Shown: in pieces, positions 10,742 to 47,710 of the stretch
Position numbering within the stretch: position 1 is the first letter of the stretch
Layout: each line of letters opens with the position of its first letter
Assembly (NCBI GenBank): GCA_023659935.1
Contig: JAGXOK010000001.1
Location: forward strand, 9,569-73,568
DNA: 64,000 bases
Direction: 5' to 3'
Source of the DNA: Candidatus Aenigmarchaeota archaeon LH_S6
GTDB lineage: Archaea; Aenigmatarchaeota; Aenigmatarchaeia; QMZS01
Program-made: the position numbers and the translations under genes
Notes under the pieces: model-generated
Database searches by the model: none
Told to the model about the DNA's origin: nothing
Seen by the model: only the letters and a program-made list of their open reading frames with translations

Positions 10742-10962
10742 GGACCTGTAGCTCAGTAAAACTGCAAACAGTTTCCTTTAGAAATAGGCTTGATAAGCTT
10801 TCAAATTGCAGTTTTGGGTAATTGGATAGAGCACTTGCCTCCTAAGCAAGGGGTCGTCGGTTCAAAACAGGGGCTTTTTTACTTGAGGTTTTTGGAATAA
10901 GTGACAAAAAGTCAGTCAACCAAAAACAAATAAAAGTCTCTCTGAGAATCCGACCAGGTCCG
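10742..10962 (+). tRNA. tRNA-Arg (anticodon CCT) with two non-canonical introns: D-loop (about 10758-10824) and T-loop (about 10867-10948)
   Basis: 5' ggacctg-ta-gctc-ag. After a 67-nt insert comes ttggata-gagc-a-cttgc-ctcctaa-gcaag-gggtc-gtcgg-ttcaaa. After an 82-nt insert comes t-ccgac-caggtcc-g followed by an oligo-T. The spliced product is a canonical 74-nt cloverleaf. The acceptor and T stems pair perfectly only after splicing. Confidence 0.6.
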
Positions 10963-12574: not shown

Positions 12575-12753
12575 GAGAAATTTATAAAATCAAAAAAAAC
12601 CCTTAAAAATACAATAATTAGCAAATCAACAAAAATACTTATCAAAGCAGCACTTAAATCCCCACTCACTAAATCGCTGCTACAGCAATTGTTTAAAATA
12701 GGAATCAATAAAAACAAAAATCAGTATGGCTTTTTGTGGATTAAAAAATTATC

Positions 12754-13082
12754 CGCCGAGAGCAGGATTCGATTGCATAAGCCTTTCTGGTTAATTCCTC
12801 TATTGCAACCTTACAAACAGGAAATTGGTTAATAGGGGGTAGGTAAAGGTAAAAGCGGAAAAATGAAATTGGTTTTGGCTTGAATCTTTCGCTTAAATTT
12901 TTTCCCAAAAAAGGCTTTACCTGCGTTTCCTTACGGAAAACTAGTCTCAAGCCAGCCGCGTTAGGTCGCAAATAGCACCATCTGGGGTGCAGTTCTTGTT
13001 TTTTCAGAGAAAAAACAGATGTTCTATCTTTGATAGAACAACCTTTTTTAAAGGATTGCTTAGACCACTCCGCCATCTCGGC
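12754..13082 (-). tRNA. tRNA-Ser (anticodon TGA, class II) with two long non-canonical introns: D-loop (12961-13059) and T-loop (12773-12918)
   Basis: Minus strand: gccgaga-tg-gcg-gagtggtctaa[99-nt intron]cgc-g-gctgg-cttgaga-ctagt-tttccgtaaggaaa-c-gcagg-t[146-nt intron]tcgaat-cctgc-tctcggc-g. All stems pair and the spliced product is 84 nt. The six-frame ORF 12741-13076 coincides with this locus and is rejected. Confidence 0.55.
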
Positions 13083-13349: not shown

Positions 13350-14543
13350 TTACTCTAATTTCTTTTTTAGATAAATTCTCTCAATTCTTTCCATTTTTTT
13401 GAATTTATCCAGTTTTTTAATTACTTCTTGGGGCAATGTTTCAAAAACTCTTGACAATTTAAAAGTATCTAATCTAGATAATTCGTTCCACAGGTTATTT
13501 TCTCTTATTATTTTTTCAACTTGTTCTCTTTTTTCATCATTCTTCCTAGGAAAAGTTGCAACATCTTTCACCCAGATTCTTGAGATACAACCAGAGCCAT
13601 TAACAGAAGTCACTCCTTCTCTTTTACTATATTTTATAAGAGCCTCTTTTACCTGCTCAATTTCAGAATCAATTTTATTAAGAAATCTTTCCCTCTCATT
13701 TTTAAGTTTTACATATTTATTCACCAAATTCACTCCTGGTTCCCCAAGGAATTTGTTTGATTCAAGAGATTCTGTTTTTACCAAGTGTTTCTGTTCTGGG
13801 CATATATCCCTAAACTCGCACCAGTTGCAAAGATTTGAAACTTTTTGCTTAAATTCTTTTTCTTTTTCTATTCTTTTTATTAATTCTATTGTGTCTGATT
13901 TTAATTTTTCAAGTTCTCTCTCTGTTTTTTCTATAGTAACCTCCTTGTCTGCGGACAGAAAATGCCAAACTAATTTTACTCTTTTTGCATCCTGATAATT
14001 TTTAAGAACTGCAATTGCATAAAGAGCAAGCTGCCTGTCCCTATGCAAATATTCTTCTCGAGGAAGTTCAAAACTTGTTTTGTAATCATGAATTTCATAT
14101 TCTCCTTTTCCTGTTGACATAAGTCTGTCAATGAATCCCTGTAATTTGTATTTTCCTTCCAGGTCAAGGGAAATAATTACTTTTTTCTCAAGACCTATTA
14201 TTTTCCCTTTATCAAATGGATAATATCTATTATAATAATCCTTAAGATATTGCTCGCCCATTTTCTTGAAGTTCTCCTTGGTATATTCTTTTTTTACAAT
14301 CAGGATTGAATCATTCCAGTTTTTATTCCACAACCTGTTGTAAAATTGTAGTATTTCTTTAAGAGAATTTTCTTTCTTAAATTTAATATCTTTGTACACT
14401 TTTTTAAGAGTCATATGAACCATATTTCCCATAAATGCCTCCACACCCTGCTGAATCTTTGGCTCTAATCTATCTATATATTTGAATTTAAATTTCAGTG
14501 GACACTGCTCAAAACAGGAGAGCCTTGAATGTGAATAAATCAT
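13350..14543 (-). CDS. PD-(D/E)XK nuclease, Cas4/AddB-like with Fe-S cysteine cluster and K/E-rich C-terminal extension
   Basis: N-terminal YSHSRLSCFEQCPLKFKFKYI. The pattern D...EIHDYKTS. QLALYAI (the QxxxY motif). C-terminal CNWCEFRDICP. Confidence 0.6.
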   Translation of the reverse strand: MIYSHSRLSCFEQCPLKFKFKYIDRLEPKIQQGVEAFMGNMVHMTLKKVYKDIKFKKENSLKEILQFYNRLWNKNWNDSILIVKKEYTKENFKKMGEQYLKDYYNRYYPFDKGKIIGLEKKVIISLDLEGKYKLQGFIDRLMSTGKGEYEIHDYKTSFELPREEYLHRDRQLALYAIAVLKNYQDAKRVKLVWHFLSADKEVTIEKTERELEKLKSDTIELIKRIEKEKEFKQKVSNLCNWCEFRDICPEQKHLVKTESLESNKFLGEPGVNLVNKYVKLKNERERFLNKIDSEIEQVKEALIKYSKREGVTSVNGSGCISRIWVKDVATFPRKNDEKREQVEKIIRENNLWNELSRLDTFKLSRVFETLPQEVIKKLDKFKKMERIERIYLKKKLE

Positions 14544-14622
14544 AATTAATACTAAAAATTTCTATTGGAGAATGAAGTGTAATTGATAATACCCTTATTT
14601 TTAAAGGTTGACAAAAGTTGAA

Positions 14623-15210
14623 CTATTTTAGAAATTTATCTTTAAATTTTGATATATTGAATTTTAATTTTCGATAAAAAAACAAAAATTCCTGGGTTTC
14701 CTTTTTTATGTAATCAAGAATTTTTTTGTATTCTCTATCCTTATACCATGCAGGAATTATTGCTCCTGAATGTTCCTTTCCTGTAAATTTATCCAGGCTA
14801 CAACCTTTAAAATTAAAACCATTCATTGCCAGACATATTGGTTTGAGATCAATTACAGGCAAATTATGATAAATAAACCAATTATTATAATTAATTCCAT
14901 AGATTTCTGCCCTATGCTTGAATATACCCAAATCAAAACAAACATTAAAACCAACAGGAATAAATTTCCATTTGTTTTCTGGGCATAGAATTTTTGAGAA
15001 TTTTTCTATAATCTCTTTTTCAGAGGACTCCCATTCCTTTAAGATTTTTAAATCTCCGACAGGCCCTCCATACTTGCCGATTTCCTGGTATTGAATTGTT
15101 ATAATCTTACTTTTTTCTGGGTCAAATGGAACCCTCTCCTTCCTTCTTAATTTTTCCACAATTTCTGGATCAGTATATCCTATCTCTATATCAAGATAAT
15201 ATTCAGACAT
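14623..15210 (-). CDS. RNase H-like (DEDD-type, YprB/COG3359-like) exonuclease
   Basis: YLDIEIGY (Exo I, DxE) and FNVCFDLGIF (Exo II). Overlaps the upstream paralog by 8 nt. Confidence 0.4.
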   Translation of the reverse strand: MSEYYLDIEIGYTDPEIVEKLRRKERVPFDPEKSKIITIQYQEIGKYGGPVGDLKILKEWESSEKEIIEKFSKILCPENKWKFIPVGFNVCFDLGIFKHRAEIYGINYNNWFIYHNLPVIDLKPICLAMNGFNFKGCSLDKFTGKEHSGAIIPAWYKDREYKKILDYIKKETQEFLFFYRKLKFNISKFKDKFLK

Positions 15211-15697
15211 ATTCTTTCAAGATAATTGAGTATAGTTTTTCAGAGGCCTGCAAATTTTTTATAACAGCTTCTTCCATTTTCTGATAGTCTTTATTTTTAT
15301 AAAAATCCAAAATTTTTTCTTCAGGAACAGCCATAATATTATACCTCTGACAATAATACTTAAAACTTTTTATTTCTTTTTTTAAAAAAATCAAAACTGC
15401 AAACAAATCCAAAATATTAGAACGGTTTAATTTTAGATAAAATTCATCAAATTTTTCCAGAGAAGAAAGTTTTAATAATAAAAGAGGAAAGTCAAATTTC
15501 AGTATATTATACCCAACAAATATTTTGTCATTTTCTTTTAAAAACCAGTCTCTAAAATTTTTAAGGAGATTTTCTTCACTACTAAATTTCCAACTCTTCC
15601 AGATTCTTATATTACTCAGGCCTCTCTTCTTGACCTGAATAGTTAATATTTTTGCGGAATAGGATATTCCCTCAGTTTGAATATTTAGAAAGAGCAT
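15203..15697 (-). CDS. RNase H-like exonuclease paralog with substituted catalytic residues (NxQ instead of DxE)
   Basis: LFLNIQTEG (Exo I degenerate) and YNILKFDFPLL (Exo II). Tandem with 14623-15210. Confidence 0.35.
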   Translation of the reverse strand: MLFLNIQTEGISYSAKILTIQVKKRGLSNIRIWKSWKFSSEENLLKNFRDWFLKENDKIFVGYNILKFDFPLLLLKLSSLEKFDEFYLKLNRSNILDLFAVLIFLKKEIKSFKYYCQRYNIMAVPEEKILDFYKNKDYQKMEEAVIKNLQASEKLYSIILKEYV

Positions 15698-23539: not shown

Positions 23540-23828
23540 GTTTCAATCCTTATTTCATTCGTTTTCTTTGAAAACGATGCACCGTTTTTCTTTGAAAAAC
23601 GAGTGTCTTGGACCTATCTCTAAAACGCAACCCTTTTCAAGGTAATTGTTGAAAAAGGTCTGCACCCTAAAAACTAAAATAACAGAATTATCACCCTGTT
23701 TTGGCTTGAGCCTTTTTAATTTATAATACCCATAAAAGGCTCATTTAATCCTTATTTCATTCGTTTTCTTCGAAAACGATGCACCGTTTTTCTTTGAAAA
23801 ACGAGTGTCATGGACCTATTTCTAAAAC
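23540..23828 (-). CRISPR. satellite repeat-X-repeat unit: two 85-87-nt expanded CRISPR repeats (each with a 52-nt twin-palindrome insertion) flanking a 117-nt X element
   Basis: 23540-23626 and 23744-23828 are the normal 37-nt repeat, with cattcgttttctttgaaaacgatgcaccgtttttctttgaaaaacgagtgtc inserted between cttattt and ctggacc. 23627-23743 is 95 percent identical to 25894-26009. Confidence 0.55.
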
Positions 23829-23881
23829 TTGAAAGACTTAAATATCTATTATATCATTAATAATAAATGGTGTGATGTAAT

Positions 23882-25265: not shown

Positions 25266-26117
25266 GTATTTTAATCCTTATTTTACTGGATCTATTTCTA
25301 AAACTGCCATATCTCCTACTACATCATCAGAACTCTCCGTTGCGTTTCAATCCTTATTTTCATGGACCTATCTCTAAAACAGAAAATTTAGAAAATCTGG
25401 CTGAAGAGTATGGTATGTTTCAATCCTTATTTTCATGGACCTATCTCTAAAACTTTCTTTTAGGTCTATGTTTCCCCCCATTCCAGCATGTTTCAATCCT
25501 TATTTTACTGGACCTATCTCTAAAACATTAGATACAAGGGAGAGAAAGCTTGAAGAATCTAAAGTTTCAATCCTTATTTTACTGGACCTATCTCTAAAAC
25601 AGGAATGCGCTCCAGAATCTATCATTACTTTTCCTTGTTTCAATCCTTATTTTACTGGACCTATTTCTAAAACACAAAGGACTTAGAGGGAACATAAAAT
25701 ACAAAACCCTGTTTCAATCCTTATTTTCGTGGATCTATTTCTAAAACTAACTCTGGAGGACGGGTTCAACGCAACTTCTGATGGTTTCAATCCTTATTTT
25801 ACTGGATCTATCTCTAAAACGAGACAGGGAAAAACCAACAACCAACACCATATCACGTTTCAATCCTTATTTTACTGGATCTATCTCTAAAACGCAACCC
25901 TTTTCAAGGTAATTGTTGAAAAAGGTCTGCACCTCAAAAACTAAAATAACAGAGTTATCACCCTGTTTTGGCTTTAGCCTTTTTAATTTACAATACCCAT
26001 AAAAGGCTCATTCAATCCTTATTTTACTGGACCTATCTCTAAAACTGTATTTTCAAGAAGGAAAAACCTTATCTCTTCTCGTTTCAATCCTTATTTTACT
26101 GGACCTATCTCTAAAAC
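25266..26117 (-). CRISPR. CRISPR array of 11 repeats; 37-nt repeat GTTTCAATCCTTATTTTACTGGACCTATCTCTAAAAC on the + strand; 35-39-nt spacers
   Basis: Repeats at 25266 (degenerate), 25344, 25417, 25490, 25564, 25637, 25711, 25784, 25857, 26010 (5'-truncated) and 26081. The reverse complement starts GTTTTAGAG and ends ATTGAAAC (a typical 8-nt 5' handle), so it is probably transcribed from the minus strand. That places the leader at 26118-26677 beside cas6 and makes the degenerate 25266 repeat the terminal one. Confidence 0.85.
25894..26009. repeat. 116-nt X element inside the CRISPR array between repeats 9 and 10 (second copy at 23627-23743)
   Basis: Too long to be a spacer. It holds two hairpins (ccttttcaa..ttgaaaagg and agccttttta..taaaaggct). 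The adjacent repeat is 5'-truncated. Confidence 0.7.
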
Positions 26118-26550
26118 AGCACCGAAATCCTTTGATTTTGGCTGTTCTTGGCGATTTTAATTCACCAATTTCGTCATATATATTATTTATCATTTTCTTT
26201 ATAAAGGAGTGCTATTGTACACATATTCGCCTGTAACAACAATCAACACACCTCATATTATAACTTGTTTTTTTTTAGGATAGAAACCCTTTTGGATTAT
26301 ATTTAGGATTTCATTTATCATCCCGATTGCCCCAATCATAAATTATAATCACTTATTTTTATAACTTCTCTAAAATCTCAAGTAATTCCTTATCTTCTTT
26401 CATCATTTTTTCTATCTGTTTATCTGCAATTTCCTTGGAAACTTTTAGTTCTTTTATACCTTTATCTGTTAATACATGTCTTATATAATACTTCCCTTCA
26501 ACTTTTTTCAATTCTCTCATAAATATAATTTGTAAGTTTATTTAAATCAA

Positions 26551-26664
26551 TTTGGGTGTTGGCCTTTTGATAGATTTAACCAATAAAGGCTGACTCTTTT
26601 TTTATTGACCAATTTTGTAGTTTGGGTGTTGGCCTTTTGATAGATTTAACCAATAAAGGCTGAC
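26551..26664. repeat. tandem duplicated 44-bp hairpin unit (period 70 bp) in the CRISPR leader / cas6 3' region, carrying a TTAACCAA loop motif
   Basis: TTTGGGTGTTGGCCTTTTGATAGATTTAACCAATAAAGGCTGAC occurs at 26551-26594 and 26621-26664. Confidence 0.8.
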
Positions 26665-26677
26665 AAGGGTTGCATAT

Positions 26678-28695: not shown

Positions 28696-28968
28696 TTTTT
28701 TTTTGGGTTTATTTTTTCATAAAATCTACTGTAATTAGAAAATATCTGTTCCTGCAAAAATCTAATCAGGGAACTGGAAAATTATAAATATAGAGTCTCA
28801 AAGGGTTCTATTCAGGAATTACCTGTTAAATCAGAGAACGATGCTGTTGACAGTTTACGCTATAGGCTTTTTTCTTATAATCTCTCAAATCAGCAATCTT
28901 CAGAATTATGTGATGATGTTGTTAGTTGAAATTGGTAAGAATAACTTTTATAAATAATTTTATATATT

Positions 28969-29790
28969 ATGACCGTTTGTATATCTGCAATTTGTTGTGA
29001 TAACAAGCATGAAGATCCAAAAATTATAGTATCTTCGGATAGAATGATTACAACGGAATTGGGAGCCCCTGTCGAATATGAAGGAACAAGTACAAAAATT
29101 AGTGAACTGACCTCTAGCTGCGTTGTATTGTCGGCTGGAGTCACAACTTGGATAGAAGACCTTGTATACCGAACTAAACAAGCTATTAAAAATGAAAATA
29201 CTCTGGTTATTCGGGGAATTGCAAAAAAATGTGCTAATGCCTATATCGAGCTTATTCAAGATAATATTAAAAGACTTATTCTTAGTACTTATAATATGAG
29301 TTTTGAAGAGTTTAAAGATCAACAAAAATATAATTCTAGTTTTTTAGCAGAAGTAAACAAAAGTATTTCATTAACCAGACAAACTATAGGAGATAATTTA
29401 GCTTCATTAATTGCAGGCATTGATAAAAATGGTGCTGATATTTTTGGGATTAACAATGGCAATTTTTATCCATTTACCTCATTAGGTTACCAAGCATTAG
29501 GAAGTGGTCAAGCGTCAGCAGAATCAGTTTTTGTTCATAGGGGATATGATACTAAATGGGATCTTAAAAAAGCTATAATAACATTAATAGAAGCGAAAAA
29601 ACAAGCAGAAGAAGCTCAAGGAGTGGGAAAAAATACAGATATTGTTATTATATCAAGGGATGGAATAAAATACCTAGAAGAAGGAACAATTGAAGAACTT
29701 GAAAAAATCCACAGGGAATTAATGAATAAAATATCAGATACTAGAGATGAAGTAATTAAAGATAAATTAAATAAGTTAGATATATTATGA
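28969..29790 (+). CDS. proteasome beta-type (Ntn-hydrolase) homolog, propeptide-less with C-terminal coiled-coil extension
   Basis: Starts MTVCISAI (Thr2, as in HslV/Anbu). The following positions line up with those of the T. acidophilum proteasome beta subunit: SSDRMIT (the D17 region), GTSTKISEL (K33), VLSAGVTTWIEDLV, ALGSGQASAESVFV (the GSGS loop) and GKNTDIVIISRDG. Confidence 0.55.
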   Translation: MTVCISAICCDNKHEDPKIIVSSDRMITTELGAPVEYEGTSTKISELTSSCVVLSAGVTTWIEDLVYRTKQAIKNENTLVIRGIAKKCANAYIELIQDNIKRLILSTYNMSFEEFKDQQKYNSSFLAEVNKSISLTRQTIGDNLASLIAGIDKNGADIFGINNGNFYPFTSLGYQALGSGQASAESVFVHRGYDTKWDLKKAIITLIEAKKQAEEAQGVGKNTDIVIISRDGIKYLEEGTIEELEKIHRELMNKISDTRDEVIKDKLNKLDIL

Positions 29791-29796
29791 GAATGA

Positions 29797-29937
29797 AAAG
29801 AAGAGAAAAACTTGGTTTAAGGCACATATCCGAATTTGAGTTAATGGGTATTAGGTTTGAAGAACTCGGAGAAGAACTTGTAAAGAGGAGAGAACTGGAG
29901 AGAAAACTGGAAGAATTAAAAAAGTAATTTTTTAATT
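29797..29937 (+). CDS. small 46-aa charged protein translationally coupled (ATGA) to the proteasome-like gene
   Basis: MRMKRREKLGLRHISEFELMGIRFEELGEELVKRRELERKLEELKK. Below the ORF-track size cut-off. Confidence 0.2.
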
Positions 29938-30085
29938 AAAACTCTTTTTAGGCACCAAAGTCTTCTAACTTAGTTTTCATATTTTTGGAATAAATTCTTT
30001 CTTCCCTCTATTTAAGTTTTTTTCCATATGCCTCACTGTCTAAATTTGTTTTGCCTTTCTTAAATAGACCAGTGAGGCTTTAGTC

Positions 30086-30221
30086 AGCCACGGGAGGGAC
30101 TTGAACCCCCAACCTGCGGTTTACAAAACCGCTGCTCCACCAGTTACCCCAACCTTTTATTTTCCTATCGACGCTTTTTGATGGACTTAACCAATAAAAG
30201 GGTTGATTGAGCCACCGTGGC
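30086..30221 (-). tRNA. tRNA-Thr (anticodon TGT) with a ~63-nt D-loop intron (about 30144-30206)
   Basis: Minus strand: gccacgg-tg-gctc-aa[intron]ctggtg-gagc-a-gcggt-tttgtaa-accgc-aggtt-ggggg-ttcaagt-ccctc-ccgtggc-t. The acceptor stem pairs perfectly and the discriminator is U, as is common for Thr. The intron contains the TTAACCAATAAAAGG motif on the opposite strand. Confidence 0.6.
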
Positions 30222-30264
30222 ATAACTCTTTTTTGATAAAATTAAATTATTTATAATTATATTT

Positions 30265-37188: not shown

Positions 37189-37600
37189 AATATGTTATGA
37201 AGAAAGGTTTAACAATGGGTGTACTATTTTGGGTACTTATATTTTTTATAGTACTTATTGTTTTTGTCTCTCTTGCCCTGTGGAGTAAAGGTTTTGGTTT
37301 AAATATTTTAAGTGCTTTATTAGGCTCAGTACCTTAGTATGGGGAATATAGGTTTGATAATATTATATGTTGTTTTGGGTTTAGTGTTTATTCTCCTTGT
37401 ATTTTCTGTTGGTTCAGCCCTCTCTTTAATATGAAAAGAGTTTTTTTTTGCTTGAGCCTTTTTAGTAAACTTAACCAACAAAAGGCTTATATGAAAGGAA
37501 TAACTATCGATATGATTGCGAGTATTATAATTTTATTTATGGTTTTTATAATCCTTACTGTAATTTTTATAGCAATGGGTAATGCAATACCATCCCCAAC

Positions 37601-39380: not shown

Positions 39381-39447
39381 AGGATGTGAAATTAACCAAA
39401 TTAATAGAGGGAAGAAAGTAAATTGATAAGGAGTATTAATAAACATT
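39381..39447 (+). repeat. ~67-nt conserved element, copy A (copy B at 47648-47710)
   Basis: A is attaaccaaattaatagagggaag..agtaaattgataagg..ttaataaaca. B is attaaccaaattaataggtggaag..agtaatttgataagg..ttaataaaca. Confidence 0.75.
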
Positions 39448-43173: not shown

Positions 43174-44616
43174 ATGAAAGATAAATTAAAGAAAATTTCT
43201 GATGTAGAATATTTGGTTTCAAAAGAAGTAAGGGAAAAAATGAGGGTAAATGCAAAGATACTTGTTACCAATAAAATTATTGAAGCTGCTGAGGATGAGG
43301 CAATAAAACAACTCACAAATGTTGCCTGTCTGCCTGGGGTTGTGGAGCCTGTCTACGGCATGCCTGATATTCACTGGGGTTATGGTCTGCCTATGGGAGC
43401 TATAGGGGCTTTTAACTCTGAGGAAGGTGTAATTTCAAGTGGGTGCACTGGTTTTGATATTAACTGCGGAATCAGGATGATTAAAACAAATTTAACCTAT
43501 AAAGAAATTAAACCAAAATTAAAGCAATTAATTAATGTTTTGTTTCATAATGTTCCAACAGGGGTTGGCTCAAAGGGGAAATTGAGATTGTCAAGAGATG
43601 AATTAGATGAAGTTCTTGTTAAAGGAGCAAGATGGGCTATGGAAAATAATTATGCAACAAAAGAAGATTTGCAACATATGGAGGAATACGGTAATATGTC
43701 TGGTGCAAGTGTAGATAAAATTTCTGATTTGGCAAAAAAGAGGGGTCTTCCACAATTAGGAACTTTGGGTGCAGGGAATCATTTTCTGGAAATTCAGAAA
43801 GTTGACCAGATTTTTGATTCTGAAACTGCAAAAATTTTTGGTGTTACTGACAAGGATCAGATTATTGTAATGTTACATTGTGGTTCTCGTGGTTTGGGTC
43901 ATCAGATTGCCACAGATTATTTGAAAATTCATGAAAAGGCTGCAAAAAAATATAATATCTGGCTTCCAGACAAGCAACTTGTTTGTGCTCCTGCAAATTC
44001 TAAGGAAGGACAGGATTATTTTGAAGCAATGAAAGGAGGGGTAAATTATGCTTTTACAAACAGAACTGTGATGACAGATTGGATTAGAGAGAGTTTTGAA
44101 AAAGTTTTTGGAAAAACTAGAGAGGAAATGGATATGAAACTAATTTATGATGTGTGCCACAATATTTGTAAACTGGAAGAACATGAAGTTGAAGGTGAGA
44201 AAAGAAAATTATATGTTCATAGGAAAGGAGCAACAAGAAGTCTTCCTGCCGGACATGAGTTATTACCAGAAACTTACAAAAAAGTGGGGCAGCCTGTTTT
44301 AATTGCGGGTTCAATGGGAACTGCAAGTTATATTTTAGTTGGAGGTGAAAAAGCAAAGAAAACTTTTTACTCGAGTTGCCATGGAGCAGGAAGAGTAATG
44401 AGCAGGAGCAAAGCAATAAGAGATTTCAGGGGGAATACAATTAGAGAAGAATTAGCTAAAAGAGGAATTACTGCAAAGTCCACAAGCCCAAAAATTCTGG
44501 CTGAAGAATCACCAAATGCTTATAAGGATATTGACGAAGTTGCAAAAGCAGTTGACATTGCGGGAATCTCAAAGAAAGTTGTTCGGGTTGTTCCTGTTGG
44601 GGTTGTTAAGGGATAA
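43174..44616 (+). CDS. rtcB: RNA-splicing ligase RtcB
   Basis: HWGYGLPMG, NCGIRM, GAGNHF and SCHGAG motifs. 480 aa. Confidence 0.85.
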   Translation: MKDKLKKISDVEYLVSKEVREKMRVNAKILVTNKIIEAAEDEAIKQLTNVACLPGVVEPVYGMPDIHWGYGLPMGAIGAFNSEEGVISSGCTGFDINCGIRMIKTNLTYKEIKPKLKQLINVLFHNVPTGVGSKGKLRLSRDELDEVLVKGARWAMENNYATKEDLQHMEEYGNMSGASVDKISDLAKKRGLPQLGTLGAGNHFLEIQKVDQIFDSETAKIFGVTDKDQIIVMLHCGSRGLGHQIATDYLKIHEKAAKKYNIWLPDKQLVCAPANSKEGQDYFEAMKGGVNYAFTNRTVMTDWIRESFEKVFGKTREEMDMKLIYDVCHNICKLEEHEVEGEKRKLYVHRKGATRSLPAGHELLPETYKKVGQPVLIAGSMGTASYILVGGEKAKKTFYSSCHGAGRVMSRSKAIRDFRGNTIREELAKRGITAKSTSPKILAEESPNAYKDIDEVAKAVDIAGISKKVVRVVPVGVVKG

Positions 44617-47647: not shown

Positions 47648-47710
47648 GGTGTAGGGAATTAACCAAATTAATAGGTGGAAGTTAGTAATTTGATAAGGTT
47701 GTTAATAAAC
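47648..47710 (+). repeat. ~63-nt conserved element, copy B
   Basis: See the 39381-39447 entry. Confidence 0.75.

What the first reader, a model, noticed from the sequence alone, without database searches (positions are those of the whole stretch)
30086..30221. tRNA-Thr(UGU) with a D-loop intron that carries the TTAACCAATAAAAGG motif
The acceptor gccacgg/ccgtggc, the anticodon arm gcggt-tttgtaa-accgc and the T-arm ggggg-ttcaagt-ccctc are intact. The D-stem halves gctc/gagc are 63 nt apart. The intron's opposite strand carries acttaaccaataaaaggg, the same motif found in the tRNA-Ser intron and in intergenic hairpins. The gene sits 44 bp upstream of, and antisense to, rps15.
Basis: seen in the sequence. 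Interest (0 to 1): 0.65.

Follow-up and report, generated by a model that had tools for sequence, protein, structure and literature searches.

The report
Threonine tRNA with mobile-element intron
A threonine tRNA gene of an uncultured Aenigmarchaeota archaeon is interrupted in its D-loop by a 63-base intron that the cell's tRNA-splicing enzymes should cut out, and that intron is a copy of a small hairpin repeat that has also inserted elsewhere in the genome, which hints at how such odd tRNA introns are gained.

Summary
Window 30221..30086 (minus strand) is a tRNA-Thr(UGU) gene split between tRNA positions 15 and 16 by a 63-nt intron (30206..30144). Removing it gives a perfect 73-nt cloverleaf. 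An intronless orthologue beside rps15 in a relative has exactly the predicted exon junction.

The junctions can form the archaeal bulge-helix-bulge (BHB) splice motif: 3-nt bulge, 4-bp helix, 3-nt bulge. This motif is kept in five distinct orthologous sequences, including one with an unrelated 124-nt intron at the same site. The RtcB splicing ligase is encoded in the window. EndA is not.

The motif claim also holds. The intron body matches hairpins at 26561-26591, 26631-26661 and 37454-37488 far beyond chance. The 37.4-kb copy is a 60-bp insertion flanked by an 8-bp direct repeat, and three relatives have the empty site.

Each carries two non-canonical introns, and the gene finders missed both.

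Verdict: a new member of the known class of non-canonical BHB tRNA introns, in a DPANN lineage where I found no report of them. The twist is that the intron bodies look like copies of a small mobile hairpin element. Splicing and mobility are inferred, not shown.

The parts
30086..30221 (-). Complete tRNA-Thr(UGU) gene, 136 nt, with no encoded CCA
   Evidence: Read. The Rfam tRNA hit covers only 30153..30086. The spliced form is called tRNA-Thr(tgt) by ARAGORN.
30207..30221 (-). Exon 1, tRNA positions 1-15 (GCCACGGUGGCUCAA): 5' acceptor strand, U8, G9, 5' D stem GCUC, A14, A15
   Evidence: Identical in L001, L003, L005, L203, L209 and L211.
30144..30206 (-). 63-nt intron between tRNA positions 15 and 16. 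It is 36.5% GC, against 61.6% for the exons.
   Evidence: Boundaries come from the BHB geometry and from the intronless orthologue L210.
30086..30143 (-). Exon 2, tRNA positions 16-73. It holds the rest of the D loop (CUGGUG), the 3' D stem GAGC, the anticodon arm (anticodon UGU at 30125..30123), the variable loop, the T arm, the 3' acceptor strand and U73.
30209..30212 (-). BHB central helix, 5' strand: G10 C11 U12 C13, which is also the 5' strand of the D stem
   Evidence: Pairs with GGGU at 30149..30146. The pairing is kept as GAGC or GAGU in relatives.
30146..30149 (-). BHB central helix, 3' strand (GGGU), inside the intron
30206..30208 (-). 5' bulge A14 A15 | U, with the predicted 5' cleavage after A15
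   Evidence: The cleavage position follows the known geometry of BHB substrates, which is established knowledge and not tested here.
30143..30145 (-). 3' bulge A A | C16, with the predicted 3' cleavage before C16
30150..30205 (-). Intron-internal (inner) helix and its enclosed sequence. CAACC (30205..30201) pairs with GGUUG (30154..30150). After one bulged C, UUUUAUU (30199..30193) pairs with AAUAAAA (30161..30155).
   Evidence: All five helix-proximal pairs are kept in the five distinct sequences, two of them through changes on both sides.
30173..30202 (+). Hairpin-repeat module inside the intron (GCTTTTTGATGGACTTAACCAATAAAAGGG): a CUUUU/AAAAG stem with a 17-nt loop.
30222..30264 (.). 43-bp divergent spacer between the tRNA and rps15 (7% GC). 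The upstream box TTAAATTTTATC, about 17-30 nt before the tRNA 5' end, is conserved in relatives and is a likely archaeal TATA/BRE element.
   Evidence: Read. The promoter role is an inference.
26561..26591 (+). Hairpin repeat, copy A. It sits in a tandem 70-bp repeat between cas6b and a 53-aa ORF.
   Evidence: The segment is absent in strain GCA_023658975.1 (L214, L215).
26631..26661 (+). Hairpin repeat, copy B
37435..37494 (+). 60-bp insertion made of a T-rich tract plus the hairpin repeat. It is flanked by the 8-bp direct repeat ATATGAAA (37429-37436 and 37489-37496). Relatives have an empty site.
   Evidence: Alignment A3. Empty sites are seen in L218-L220, L221 and L223. Similarity to the intron.
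12754..13082 (-). tRNA-Ser(UGA) with two non-canonical introns: 13060..12962 (99 nt, D loop) and 12918..12773 (146 nt, between positions 54 and 55). The second carries TTAACCAA-type modules, and its terminal helix AAGCCUUU/AAAGGCUU is the hairpin-repeat stem.
10742..10962 (+). tRNA-Arg(CCU) with two non-canonical introns: 10757..10821 (65 nt, at 15/16) and 10867..10948 (82 nt, T loop). The first belongs to the same intron family as the tRNA-Thr intron of relative L209.
43174..44616 (+). RtcB tRNA-splicing ligase gene, the ligation half of the proposed splicing pathway
   Evidence: Pfam PF01139, E 1.8e-171.

Best explanation
This is a functional tRNA-Thr(UGU) gene of a Candidatus Aenigmarchaeota (DPANN) archaeon. 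A 63-nt protein-spliced BHB intron interrupts it between positions 15 and 16 of the D loop.

Proposed pathway:
1. The gene is transcribed from a conserved A/T-rich box upstream.
2. In the precursor, the 5' strand of the D stem (G10-C13) pairs with GGGU near the intron's 3' end instead of with its mature partner.
3. This gives a 4-bp helix flanked by two 3-nt bulges (AA|U and AA|C), backed by an intron-internal helix.
4. The splicing endonuclease EndA cuts in both bulges.
5. RtcB, encoded at 43174..44616, joins the exons, and the D stem re-forms.

What is shown: the exons, the cloverleaf, the BHB-compatible pairing and its conservation, the intronless orthologue, and the RtcB gene. What is inferred: transcription, cleavage and ligation.

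The TTAACCAATAAAAGG motif is not part of the splice signal. It is the loop and 3' arm of a roughly 35-nt hairpin repeat that, with a T-rich tract, makes up about 50 of the 63 intron bases. The same repeat occurs as a recent 60-bp insertion with an 8-bp target duplication at 37435-37494, in strain-variable DNA next to cas6b, and in the tRNA-Ser T-loop intron. The intron body is therefore most likely a copy of a small mobile hairpin element. The tRNA tolerates it because it is spliced out. This second part is less certain, about 0.55.
For: tRNA identity:
- The spliced sequence is a perfect ARAGORN tRNA-Thr(tgt).
- It folds as a cloverleaf at minimum free energy (-33.7 kcal/mol, z -2.67).
- U8, A14, G18G19, U33, U54U55C56 and an A15:U48 pair are present (read).
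- Exons are 61.6% GC in a 32% GC genome.

Orthologues beside rps15:
- L001, L002 and L003 have the same intron.
- L005 and L203-L208 have a related 56- or 53-nt intron.
- L209 and L211 have an unrelated intron at the same site (124 nt in L209; L211 is cut by the contig end).
- L210 has no intron. It reads GGCUCAA-CUGGCAGAGC and scores 68.5 bits in Rfam.

BHB motif:
- A fold of the D-arm region gives a 4-bp helix, an AAU bulge and an inner helix.
- An automated check finds 4 of 4 central pairs and 3-nt bulges.
- Across 5 distinct sequences, 11 pairs are 100% paired. Two pairs changed on both sides and three on one side. Slid controls pair at 20-56%.
- In L005 and L203 the minimum-free-energy fold itself contains the BHB.
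- The four other introns in the window also have 3-4-3 motifs.
- RtcB is present.

Known background: non-canonical BHB introns and DPANN endonucleases with broad specificity are established (PMC4090602, PMC3239211, PMC5829648).

Mobile-repeat part:
- All copies form a hairpin with an 8-10-bp stem and a 17-nt loop.
- The insertion with a direct repeat has empty sites in three relatives.
- The cas6b-proximal copies are absent in a sister strain.
- Introns share modules across tRNAs and genomes. The Arg D-loop intron against the L209 Thr intron scores 41 against a shuffle maximum of 25. The L211 Thr intron against the Ser T-loop intron matches at 19 of 20 bases.
- The motif region is shortened or lost in the L005 and L203 introns and absent in L209, yet the BHB is kept.
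Against: - No RNA data, so splicing is not shown.
- In the window's own sequence the BHB conformer is 4.9 kcal/mol above the predicted minimum-free-energy fold (-41.8 against -46.7). Its central helix has two G·U pairs.
- The outer helix is only two G·U pairs. The motif is therefore relaxed and needs an endonuclease with broad specificity.
- No EndA gene is in the 64-kb window.
- Position 21 of the spliced tRNA is G rather than the usual A.

For the mobile-element part:
- No clear target duplication flanks the tRNA copy.
- No transposase or integrase is in the window.
- Only three independent non-tRNA loci are available.
- The direction of transfer (element into intron, or intron-derived copies elsewhere) is unknown.
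- The intron is older than the split from the L005 and L203 lineage. The close match to same-genome copies therefore needs gene conversion or re-insertion to explain it.
Confidence: 0.85

Rival explanations
1. The hairpin motif is a functional RNA or protein-binding element rather than a mobile-element relic. It would be a structured signal that happens to be used in an intron, near the CRISPR array and in an operon spacer, in the way the tRNA-Trp intron hosts a C/D box guide RNA.
For: The stem length and the 17-nt loop are constant in all copies. The loop core TTAACCAA recurs in several introns, including L211. Two tandem copies lie just upstream of a small 53-aa ORF that could be a regulator.
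Against: - The motif is antisense to the tRNA-Thr but sense in the 3' end of the tRNA-Ser intron and in the 37.4-kb operon. No single RNA strand is therefore used.
- Distances to start codons are inconsistent.
- There are no C (RUGAUGA) or D (CUGA) boxes in the intron (read), and no Rfam family matches it.
- The loop is deleted in the orthologous L005 and L203 introns.
- The 37.4-kb copy is a derived insertion with a duplicated target.
Confidence: 0.2
2. The gene is a tRNA pseudogene, killed by an insertion in the D loop and not spliced.
For: Gene finders reject it. The BHB conformer is not the predicted minimum-free-energy fold in this strain. G21 is unusual.
Against: - Exons are intact and almost invariant across relatives whose rps15 is only 81-94% identical, while the intron and flanks diverge.
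- BHB pairing is maintained through substitutions and with a wholly different intron.
- The upstream box is conserved.
- All three tRNA genes in the window are interrupted in the same manner. Under the pseudogene reading all three would be dead.
- RtcB is present.
Confidence: 0.05
3. An intronless tRNA-Thr lies at 30153..30086 (the Rfam hit, and ARAGORN's 73-nt call in L001 and L003), and the upstream GCCACGGUGGCUCAA is coincidental.
For: Rfam gives 32 bits, above the 29-bit gathering score. ARAGORN calls tRNA-Thr at the equivalent place in L001 and L003.
Against: - The acceptor stem has four non-standard pairs in the Rfam alignment.
- ARAGORN does not call it in the window.
- It does not fold as a cloverleaf (-18.3 kcal/mol, z +0.99).
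- It leaves a perfect 7-bp acceptor partner and D-stem half 63 nt upstream unexplained.
- The intronless orthologue L210 uses exactly that upstream half and scores 68.5 bits.
Confidence: 0.02
4. The motif sharing is chance similarity between A/T-rich, low-complexity sequences.
For: The genome is 32% GC. The 8-mer TTAACCAA alone is only about twofold enriched (14 hits against 7 expected). One viral-database hit was plainly a chance match.
Against: Dinucleotide-preserving shuffles never reach the observed scores: 0 of 300 against the whole window and 0 of 2000 pairwise. The similarity covers about 50 nt, with matching hairpin geometry.
Confidence: 0.03

Closest known systems
Non-canonical BHB introns of archaeal tRNA genes (Thermoproteales, Nanoarchaeota, Thaumarchaeota, ARMAN-2/Micrarchaeota)
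   Same: A short intron lies outside position 37/38. It is bounded by a 3-4-3 bulge-helix-bulge, with several introns per gene and many genes affected. EndA plus RtcB are presumed to remove it (PMC4090602, PMC3239211, PMC8450103).
   Different: The host is an Aenigmarchaeota lineage, for which I found no report in the searchable library. The site 15/16 is not among the positions listed in the review I read (PMC4090602); I could not check the primary catalogues. The outer helix is nearly absent, and in this strain the central helix uses two G·U pairs.
[quoted passage not shown] 2010, as summarised in PMC4090602 and PMC4033280)
   Same: Closely similar intron sequences occur in tRNAs of different identity. 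Here the tRNA-Arg(CCU) 15/16 intron of the window matches the tRNA-Thr(UGU) 15/16 intron of L209. Orthologous genes differ in whether they have an intron and in which intron they have.
   Different: Here the shared modules also occur outside tRNA genes, once as an insertion with a target-site duplication. That points to a DNA-level mobile element. The reviews state that the mechanism in Thermoproteales is unknown.
MITEs and REP-type palindromic repeats of prokaryotes
   Same: Small size, a hairpin or terminal inverted repeat, dispersed and tandem copies in intergenic DNA, strain-level presence/absence, and one copy with an 8-bp direct repeat at a site that is empty in relatives.
   Different: At about 35-60 bp it is smaller than typical archaeal MITEs (from my own knowledge). 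No partner transposase was found. Copies sit inside tRNA genes, where they are presumably removed at the RNA level.
Introners: transposon-derived spliceosomal introns of eukaryotes (PMC11282704)
   Same: The concept is the same: a mobile element whose insertion is harmless because the host splicing machinery removes it, so that it seeds new introns.
   Different: The splicing system is entirely different (protein endonuclease and BHB rather than the spliceosome). The targets are tRNAs, not mRNAs. The link here is inferred from a few loci.
tRNA-Trp intron carrying a C/D box guide RNA in Euryarchaeota
   Same: An archaeal tRNA intron with conserved internal sequence beyond the splice motif.
   Different: There are no C or D boxes and no consistent strand. 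The internal motif is lost in orthologues.

Membership tests
tRNA-Thr(UGU) | The joined exons form a canonical cloverleaf (7/4/5/5-bp stems, 7-nt anticodon and T loops) with anticodon UGU | tested here: met
   ARAGORN calls the spliced sequence tRNA-Thr(tgt), 73 nt. The minimum-free-energy fold is a cloverleaf.
tRNA-Thr(UGU) | Universally conserved tRNA nucleotides (U8, A14, G18G19, A21, U33, U54U55C56) | tested here: met
   All are present except G at position 21 in this strain. Relatives have A21.
tRNA-Thr(UGU) | An orthologous uninterrupted gene exists at the same locus in a relative | tested here: met
   L210:1225..1153 lies beside rps15 and scores 68.5 bits on Rfam tRNA. Its junction sequence is the one predicted.
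[quoted passage not shown] | Two 3-nt bulges on opposite strands, separated by a 4-bp helix, with the exon-intron junctions inside the bulges | tested here: met
   GCUC:GGGU with bulges AA|U and AA|C.
[quoted passage not shown] | Flanking helices on both sides (strict hBHBh') | tested here: inconclusive
   The inner helix has 5 + 7 bp. The outer helix is only G9·U and U8·G. This fits the relaxed class that needs a broad-specificity EndA (PMC3239211).
[quoted passage not shown] | The motif is conserved, with compensating changes, among homologues | tested here: met
   Across 5 distinct sequences, 11 pairs are 100% paired, 2 pairs changed on both sides, and slid controls pair at 20-56%. The sample is small.
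[quoted passage not shown] | The BHB conformer is thermodynamically favoured in the precursor | tested here: not met
   In the window it is -41.8 against a minimum of -46.7 kcal/mol. In L005 and L203 the minimum-free-energy fold does contain the BHB. This is not a strict requirement of the family, because the enzyme and tertiary contacts can select conformers.
[quoted passage not shown] | The splicing machinery (EndA endonuclease and RtcB ligase) is encoded by the organism | tested here: inconclusive
   RtcB was found at 43174..44616. No EndA is among the 59 ORFs of the window.
[quoted passage not shown] | The spliced mature RNA or the excised (circular) intron is observed | not testable with these tools
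   No transcript data.
Transposed ('translocatable') tRNA introns, Thermoproteales type | Near-identical intron sequence in tRNAs of different identity | tested here: inconclusive
   This is met for the neighbouring intron family: the Arg 15/16 intron of the window against the Thr 15/16 intron of L209 scores 41, with 0 of 500 shuffles reaching it. For the 63-nt Thr intron itself the direct match to the Ser T-loop intron is not significant (72 of 500). The link runs through the shared hairpin repeat.
MITE/REP-like mobile repeat | Multiple dispersed copies with a hairpin or terminal inverted repeat | tested here: met
   Four strong and two weak copies in 64 kb. Each has an 8-10-bp stem and a 17-nt loop.
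MITE/REP-like mobile repeat | Filled and empty sites, with a target-site duplication | tested here: met
   37435-37494 is flanked by the direct repeat ATATGAAA. Empty sites are seen in L218-L220, L221 and L223. At the tRNA copy no clear duplication is seen.
MITE/REP-like mobile repeat | A cognate transposase or autonomous partner element | tested here: inconclusive
   None was found in the window by Pfam. The rest of the genome was not searched.
C/D box sRNA-bearing intron | C (RUGAUGA) and D (CUGA) boxes in the intron | tested here: not met
   Neither box is present on the tRNA strand (read). No Rfam snoRNA or sRNA hit.
Group I self-splicing intron in a tRNA gene | A ribozyme core of 200 nt or more with P3-P8 helices | tested here: not met
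   The intron is 63 nt. No Rfam intron family matches it.

The most novel reading that the evidence does not exclude
This Aenigmarchaeota lineage may carry an archaeal counterpart of 'introners'. A 35-60-bp hairpin element would insert into DNA and leave a short target duplication. When it lands in a tRNA gene, its terminal stem becomes the inner helix of a bulge-helix-bulge, so EndA and RtcB remove it from the transcript and the insertion survives as a new non-canonical intron. That would be a concrete DNA-level mechanism for the unexplained gain and 'transposition' of archaeal tRNA introns. It would also explain why all three tRNA genes in this window are interrupted, by five introns in total, none at the canonical site.
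Probability: 0.3. Interest if true: 0.8.

Novelty: new variant of a known kind. Interest (0 to 1): 0.6.

Why it matters
1. How archaeal tRNA genes gain non-canonical introns is an open question. The reviews say transposition happens but the mechanism is unknown (PMC4090602). Here the intron body, an insertion with a target duplication in an ordinary operon, and strain-variable DNA share one hairpin repeat. Orthologous tRNA-Thr genes in close relatives carry no intron, this intron, or a different intron at the same site. The question therefore becomes testable by a genome-wide census in a handful of available MAGs.

2. All three tRNA genes in this 64-kb window were missed or mis-called by ARAGORN and Rfam. 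tRNA counts, and the completeness or codon-usage inferences drawn from them, are likely to be too low for this DPANN lineage.

3. The relaxed BHB predicts that the lineage's EndA has broad substrate specificity.

Tried and rejected
- Metagenome scan with the anticodon-arm pattern. The pattern is shared with bacterial tRNA-Thr, so 79 of 80 loci were irrelevant.
- Viral-contig scan for the hairpin loop. It gave one hit in a giant-virus MAG with no hairpin context, which I take as chance.
- Synteny beyond close relatives. L004 and L006-L010 have no tRNA beside rps15.
- A promoter role for the motif. Distances to downstream start codons are inconsistent (about 64, 26 and 6 nt). Rejected.
- C/D box or K-turn readings of the hairpin. 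The boxes and the required terminal stem are missing. Rejected.
- Integration att site. No second copy of the tRNA 3' end is in the window, and no integrase was found.
- A target-site duplication at the tRNA intron. The pairs GCUCAAU/GAGCAAU in L005 and L203 and TCAAC/TAAC in the window are suggestive, but they are confounded by the symmetry of the BHB itself. Left open.
- ARAGORN with intron mode and relaxed thresholds gave only spurious calls inside ORFs.
- PHROGs and NCBIfam on the 53-aa ORF and the 273-aa ORF were uninformative.
- Exact-match look-up of the fni protein: not on record.
- The primary paper on intron transposition is not held in the library.
Full report
WHAT IS AT THE COORDINATES

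Read on the minus strand, 30221..30086 is:
GCCACGG-UG-GCUC-AA | UCAACCCUUUUAUUGGUUAAGUCCAUCAAAAAGCGUCGAUAGGAAAAUAAAAGGUUGGGGUAA | CUGGUG-GAGC-A-GCGGU-UUUGUAA-ACCGC-AGGUU-GGGGG-UUCAAGU-CCCUC-CCGUGGC-U.

Two details need correcting:
- The D-stem halves are 71 nt apart. The figure 63 nt is the intron length.
- The spacer to the divergent rps15 start (30265) is 43 nt.

ARAGORN finds no tRNA anywhere in the window. Rfam matches only 30153..30086, at 32 bits, by forcing a bad acceptor stem with four non-standard pairs.

IS IT A tRNA WITH AN INTRON?

Deleting 30206..30144 gives a 73-nt sequence. ARAGORN draws it as a flawless tRNA-Thr(tgt). It folds as a cloverleaf at minimum free energy (-33.7 kcal/mol, z -2.67). 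The intronless alternative does not (-18.3 kcal/mol, z +0.99). Exons are 61.6% GC and the intron 36.5%, in a 32% GC genome.

The strongest evidence is comparative. rps15 homologues place the window in Candidatus Aenigmarchaeota. In the close relatives, the orthologous tRNA-Thr lies divergent from rps15, in five states:
- L001, L002 and L003: the same 63-nt intron, with 1-5 substitutions.
- L005 and L203-L208: a related 56- or 53-nt intron, plus a second 28-nt intron at 53/54 with a textbook BHB.
- L209: an unrelated 124-nt intron at the same 15/16 site.
- L211: an intron with the same 5' start as L209's, cut off by the end of the contig.
- L210: no intron. It reads GCCAUGGUGGCUCAA-CUGGCAGAGC..., scores 68.5 bits in Rfam, and shows exactly the exon junction predicted for the window.

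A rough rps15 neighbour-joining tree puts all intron-bearing loci in one clade, sister to the intronless one.

HOW IT WOULD BE SPLICED

A fold of the D-arm region pairs G10CUC13 with GGGU at the intron's 3' end. It leaves A14 A15 U as a 3-nt bulge and continues into an intron-internal helix: CAACC:GGUUG, then UUUUAUU:AAUAAAA after one bulged C. On the other strand AAC follows the 4-bp helix. This is the 3-4-3 bulge-helix-bulge geometry. Placing the cuts after the second base of each bulge follows established knowledge of the motif; I did not test it here.

- On five distinct sequences all 11 pairs are standard in every sequence. Two pairs changed on both sides and three on one side. Slid controls pair at only 20-56%.
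- L209's unrelated intron solves the same structure with different bases.
- In L005 and L203 the BHB is part of the minimum-free-energy fold.
- In the window's own sequence it is 4.9 kcal/mol above a competing fold that keeps the mature D stem.
- The outer helix is only two G·U pairs.

The motif is therefore of the relaxed kind, which in other archaea needs a broad-specificity endonuclease (PMC3239211, PMC5829648). RtcB, the tRNA-splicing ligase, is encoded at 43174..44616 (E 1.8e-171). No EndA gene is in the window. Transcription, cleavage and ligation are inferred.

THE MOTIF

TTAACCAATAAAAGG lies at 30187-30201 on the + strand, antisense to the tRNA. It is part of a hairpin, GCUUUUU-(17-nt loop)-AAAAGGG.

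Copies with the same stem and 17-nt loop:
- 26561-26591 and 26631-26661, in a tandem 70-bp repeat between cas6b and a 53-aa ORF.
- 37454-37488.
- Two weaker relatives, at 23709-23741 and 25976-26008, inside a duplicated element of about 120 bp next to CRISPR repeats.

The similarity is not chance:
- The intron scores 37 and 36 against these loci. The whole window gave a mean of 27.9 and a maximum of 35 with 300 shuffled queries.
- In pairwise tests, 0 of 2000 dinucleotide shuffles reached the observed scores.
- The alignment with the 37.4-kb copy covers about 50 of the 63 intron bases, spanning the T-rich tract plus the hairpin.

The motif is not needed for splicing. Its loop is shortened in the L005 and L203 introns and absent from the L209 intron, and the BHB is kept in all of them.

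THE REPEAT BEHAVES LIKE MOBILE DNA

Three relatives carry the orthologous operon (fni, then small membrane ORFs, then a large ORF). These are L218-L220, L221 and L223, with fni 76-69% identical. In all of them the stop of ORF2 overlaps the start of ORF3 (..ATGA..). The window has 60 extra bases there (37435-37494), flanked by a perfect 8-bp direct repeat ATATGAAA that duplicates the start of ORF3. This is a derived insertion with a target-site-duplication signature.

A 98%-identical strain (L216) diverges from the window at the same junction. The cas6b-proximal segment holding the two tandem copies is replaced by other sequence in strain GCA_023658975.1 (L214, L215) but is present in L213. No transposase or integrase was found in the window.

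THE tRNA-Ser CLAIM, AND MORE

A scan for GC-rich islands and direct reading revealed two further interrupted tRNA genes.
- tRNA-Ser(UGA), 13082..12754, minus strand. Its introns are 13060..12962 (99 nt, D loop) and 12918..12773 (146 nt, between positions 54 and 55).
- tRNA-Arg(CCU), 10742..10962, plus strand. Its introns are 10757..10821 (65 nt, at 15/16) and 10867..10948 (82 nt, T loop).

Spliced in silico, both give clean cloverleaves. All four introns have 3-4-3 motifs with 3 or 4 of 4 central pairs.

Modules shared between introns:
- The Ser T-loop intron ends in TTAACCAGAAAGGCUUAU and begins with AAGCCUUUU. These are two partial, inverted copies of the hairpin repeat whose arms form the intron's terminal helix.
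- The Ser T-loop intron also holds TTAACCAATTTCC-TGTTTG. This matches the interior of the L211 tRNA-Thr intron in reverse orientation at 19 of 20 bases (0 of 500 shuffles).
- The Arg 15/16 intron matches both ends of the L209 tRNA-Thr intron (score 41 against a shuffle maximum of 25). One intron family thus sits at the same site in different tRNAs in different genomes.

The window therefore has three tRNA genes and five introns, none at 37/38.

COMPARISON WITH WHAT IS KNOWN

Non-canonical and multiple BHB introns are well described in Thermoproteales, Nanoarchaeota, Thaumarchaeota and ARMAN-2. So is 'intron transposition' between tRNAs in Thermoproteales, by an unknown mechanism presumed to act at the DNA level (PMC4090602, PMC4033280, PMC4390854, PMC3239211, PMC8450103). 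DPANN endonucleases with extra loops are associated with more tRNA gene disruption (PMC5829648).

I found no report for Aenigmarchaeota, and none linking archaeal tRNA introns to MITE-like repeats. The library is incomplete and the primary transposition paper is not held. The tRNA itself is thus a new member of a known kind. The new variant is the link between its intron and a small mobile hairpin.

LIMITS

- There are no RNA data.
- Only 64 kb of this genome, plus short loci of relatives, could be read.
- The covariation sample is five sequences.
- The tRNA copy shows no unambiguous target duplication.
- The window's intron is more similar to same-genome repeats (scores 36-37) than to the orthologous L005 intron (28). 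That fits gene conversion or re-insertion but does not prove it.
- The direction of transfer is unknown. In tRNA-sense orientation the 37.4-kb copy ends in A9 followed by the duplicated target. That would also fit an RNA-mediated route; I could not test this.

Noticed in passing
window 10742-10962 (+): tRNA-Arg(CCU) with two non-canonical introns (65 nt at 15/16; 82 nt in the T loop). ARAGORN and Rfam both miss it. Its D-loop intron belongs to the same family as the tRNA-Thr intron of relative L209.
   Followed up: yes
window 12754-13082 (-): tRNA-Ser(UGA) with two non-canonical introns (99 nt in the D loop; 146 nt at 54/55). A spurious 111-aa ORF (12741-13076) overlaps it.
   Followed up: yes
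L005:2356-2200 (-), and L203-L208 upstream of rps15: The orthologous tRNA-Thr genes carry a second, 28-nt intron at 53/54 with a strict BHB (UGAG:CUCA, bulges GG|A and AA|U, inner helix GAAUUU/AAAUUC). The window lacks it.
   Followed up: partly
window 28729-30081: A 1353-bp strain-specific segment starts 4 nt beyond the 3' end of the tRNA-Thr. It holds a 273-aa proteasome-like ORF, a small ORF, and a long inverted repeat at 30030-30080. In L001 and L003 it is replaced by an unrelated 307 bp. No integrase or att repeat was found.
   Followed up: partly
window 23560-23830: CRISPR repeats here appear to be interrupted by an insert of about 48 nt (tcgttttcttcgaaaacgatgcaccgtttttctttgaaaaacgagtgtc, two small hairpins). 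The insert lies between aatccttatttcat and tggacctatttctaaaac.
   Followed up: no
window 23620-23745 and 25894-26012: Two near-identical elements of about 120 bp sit between CRISPR repeats. They look like leaders and end in a hairpin (AGCCTTTTTAATTTAYAATACCCATAAAAGGCT) related to the intron's hairpin repeat.
   Followed up: partly
window 26318-26669; L214, L215: The segment downstream of cas6b, with two hairpin copies and a 53-aa ORF, is missing in strain GCA_023658975.1. There an intact 71-aa Cys-rich ORF lies in its place. In the window that ORF is disrupted.
   Followed up: partly
window 39388-39445 and 47655-47710: A different intergenic repeat of about 55 nt that also contains TTAACCAA (GAAATTAACCAAATTAATAGRGGGAAG..AGTAAWTTGATAAGG..TTAATAAACA). 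Its function is unknown.
   Followed up: no
window 43174-44616 (+): RtcB tRNA-splicing ligase gene (Pfam E 1.8e-171). No EndA gene is in the window.
   Followed up: yes
window 13350-15697 (-): Next to the tRNA-Ser lie a PD-(D/E)XK nuclease/DUF2800 protein and two short ORFs with fragments of a family B DNA polymerase exonuclease domain. This may be a remnant of an integrated element.
   Followed up: no
L216:1-50 (reverse complement): A strain with a 98%-identical fni gene diverges from the window at exactly the junction where the 60-bp hairpin insertion sits (after ctctttaat). It runs into unrelated sequence and the contig ends 50 nt later. This may be a second event at the same site.
   Followed up: no
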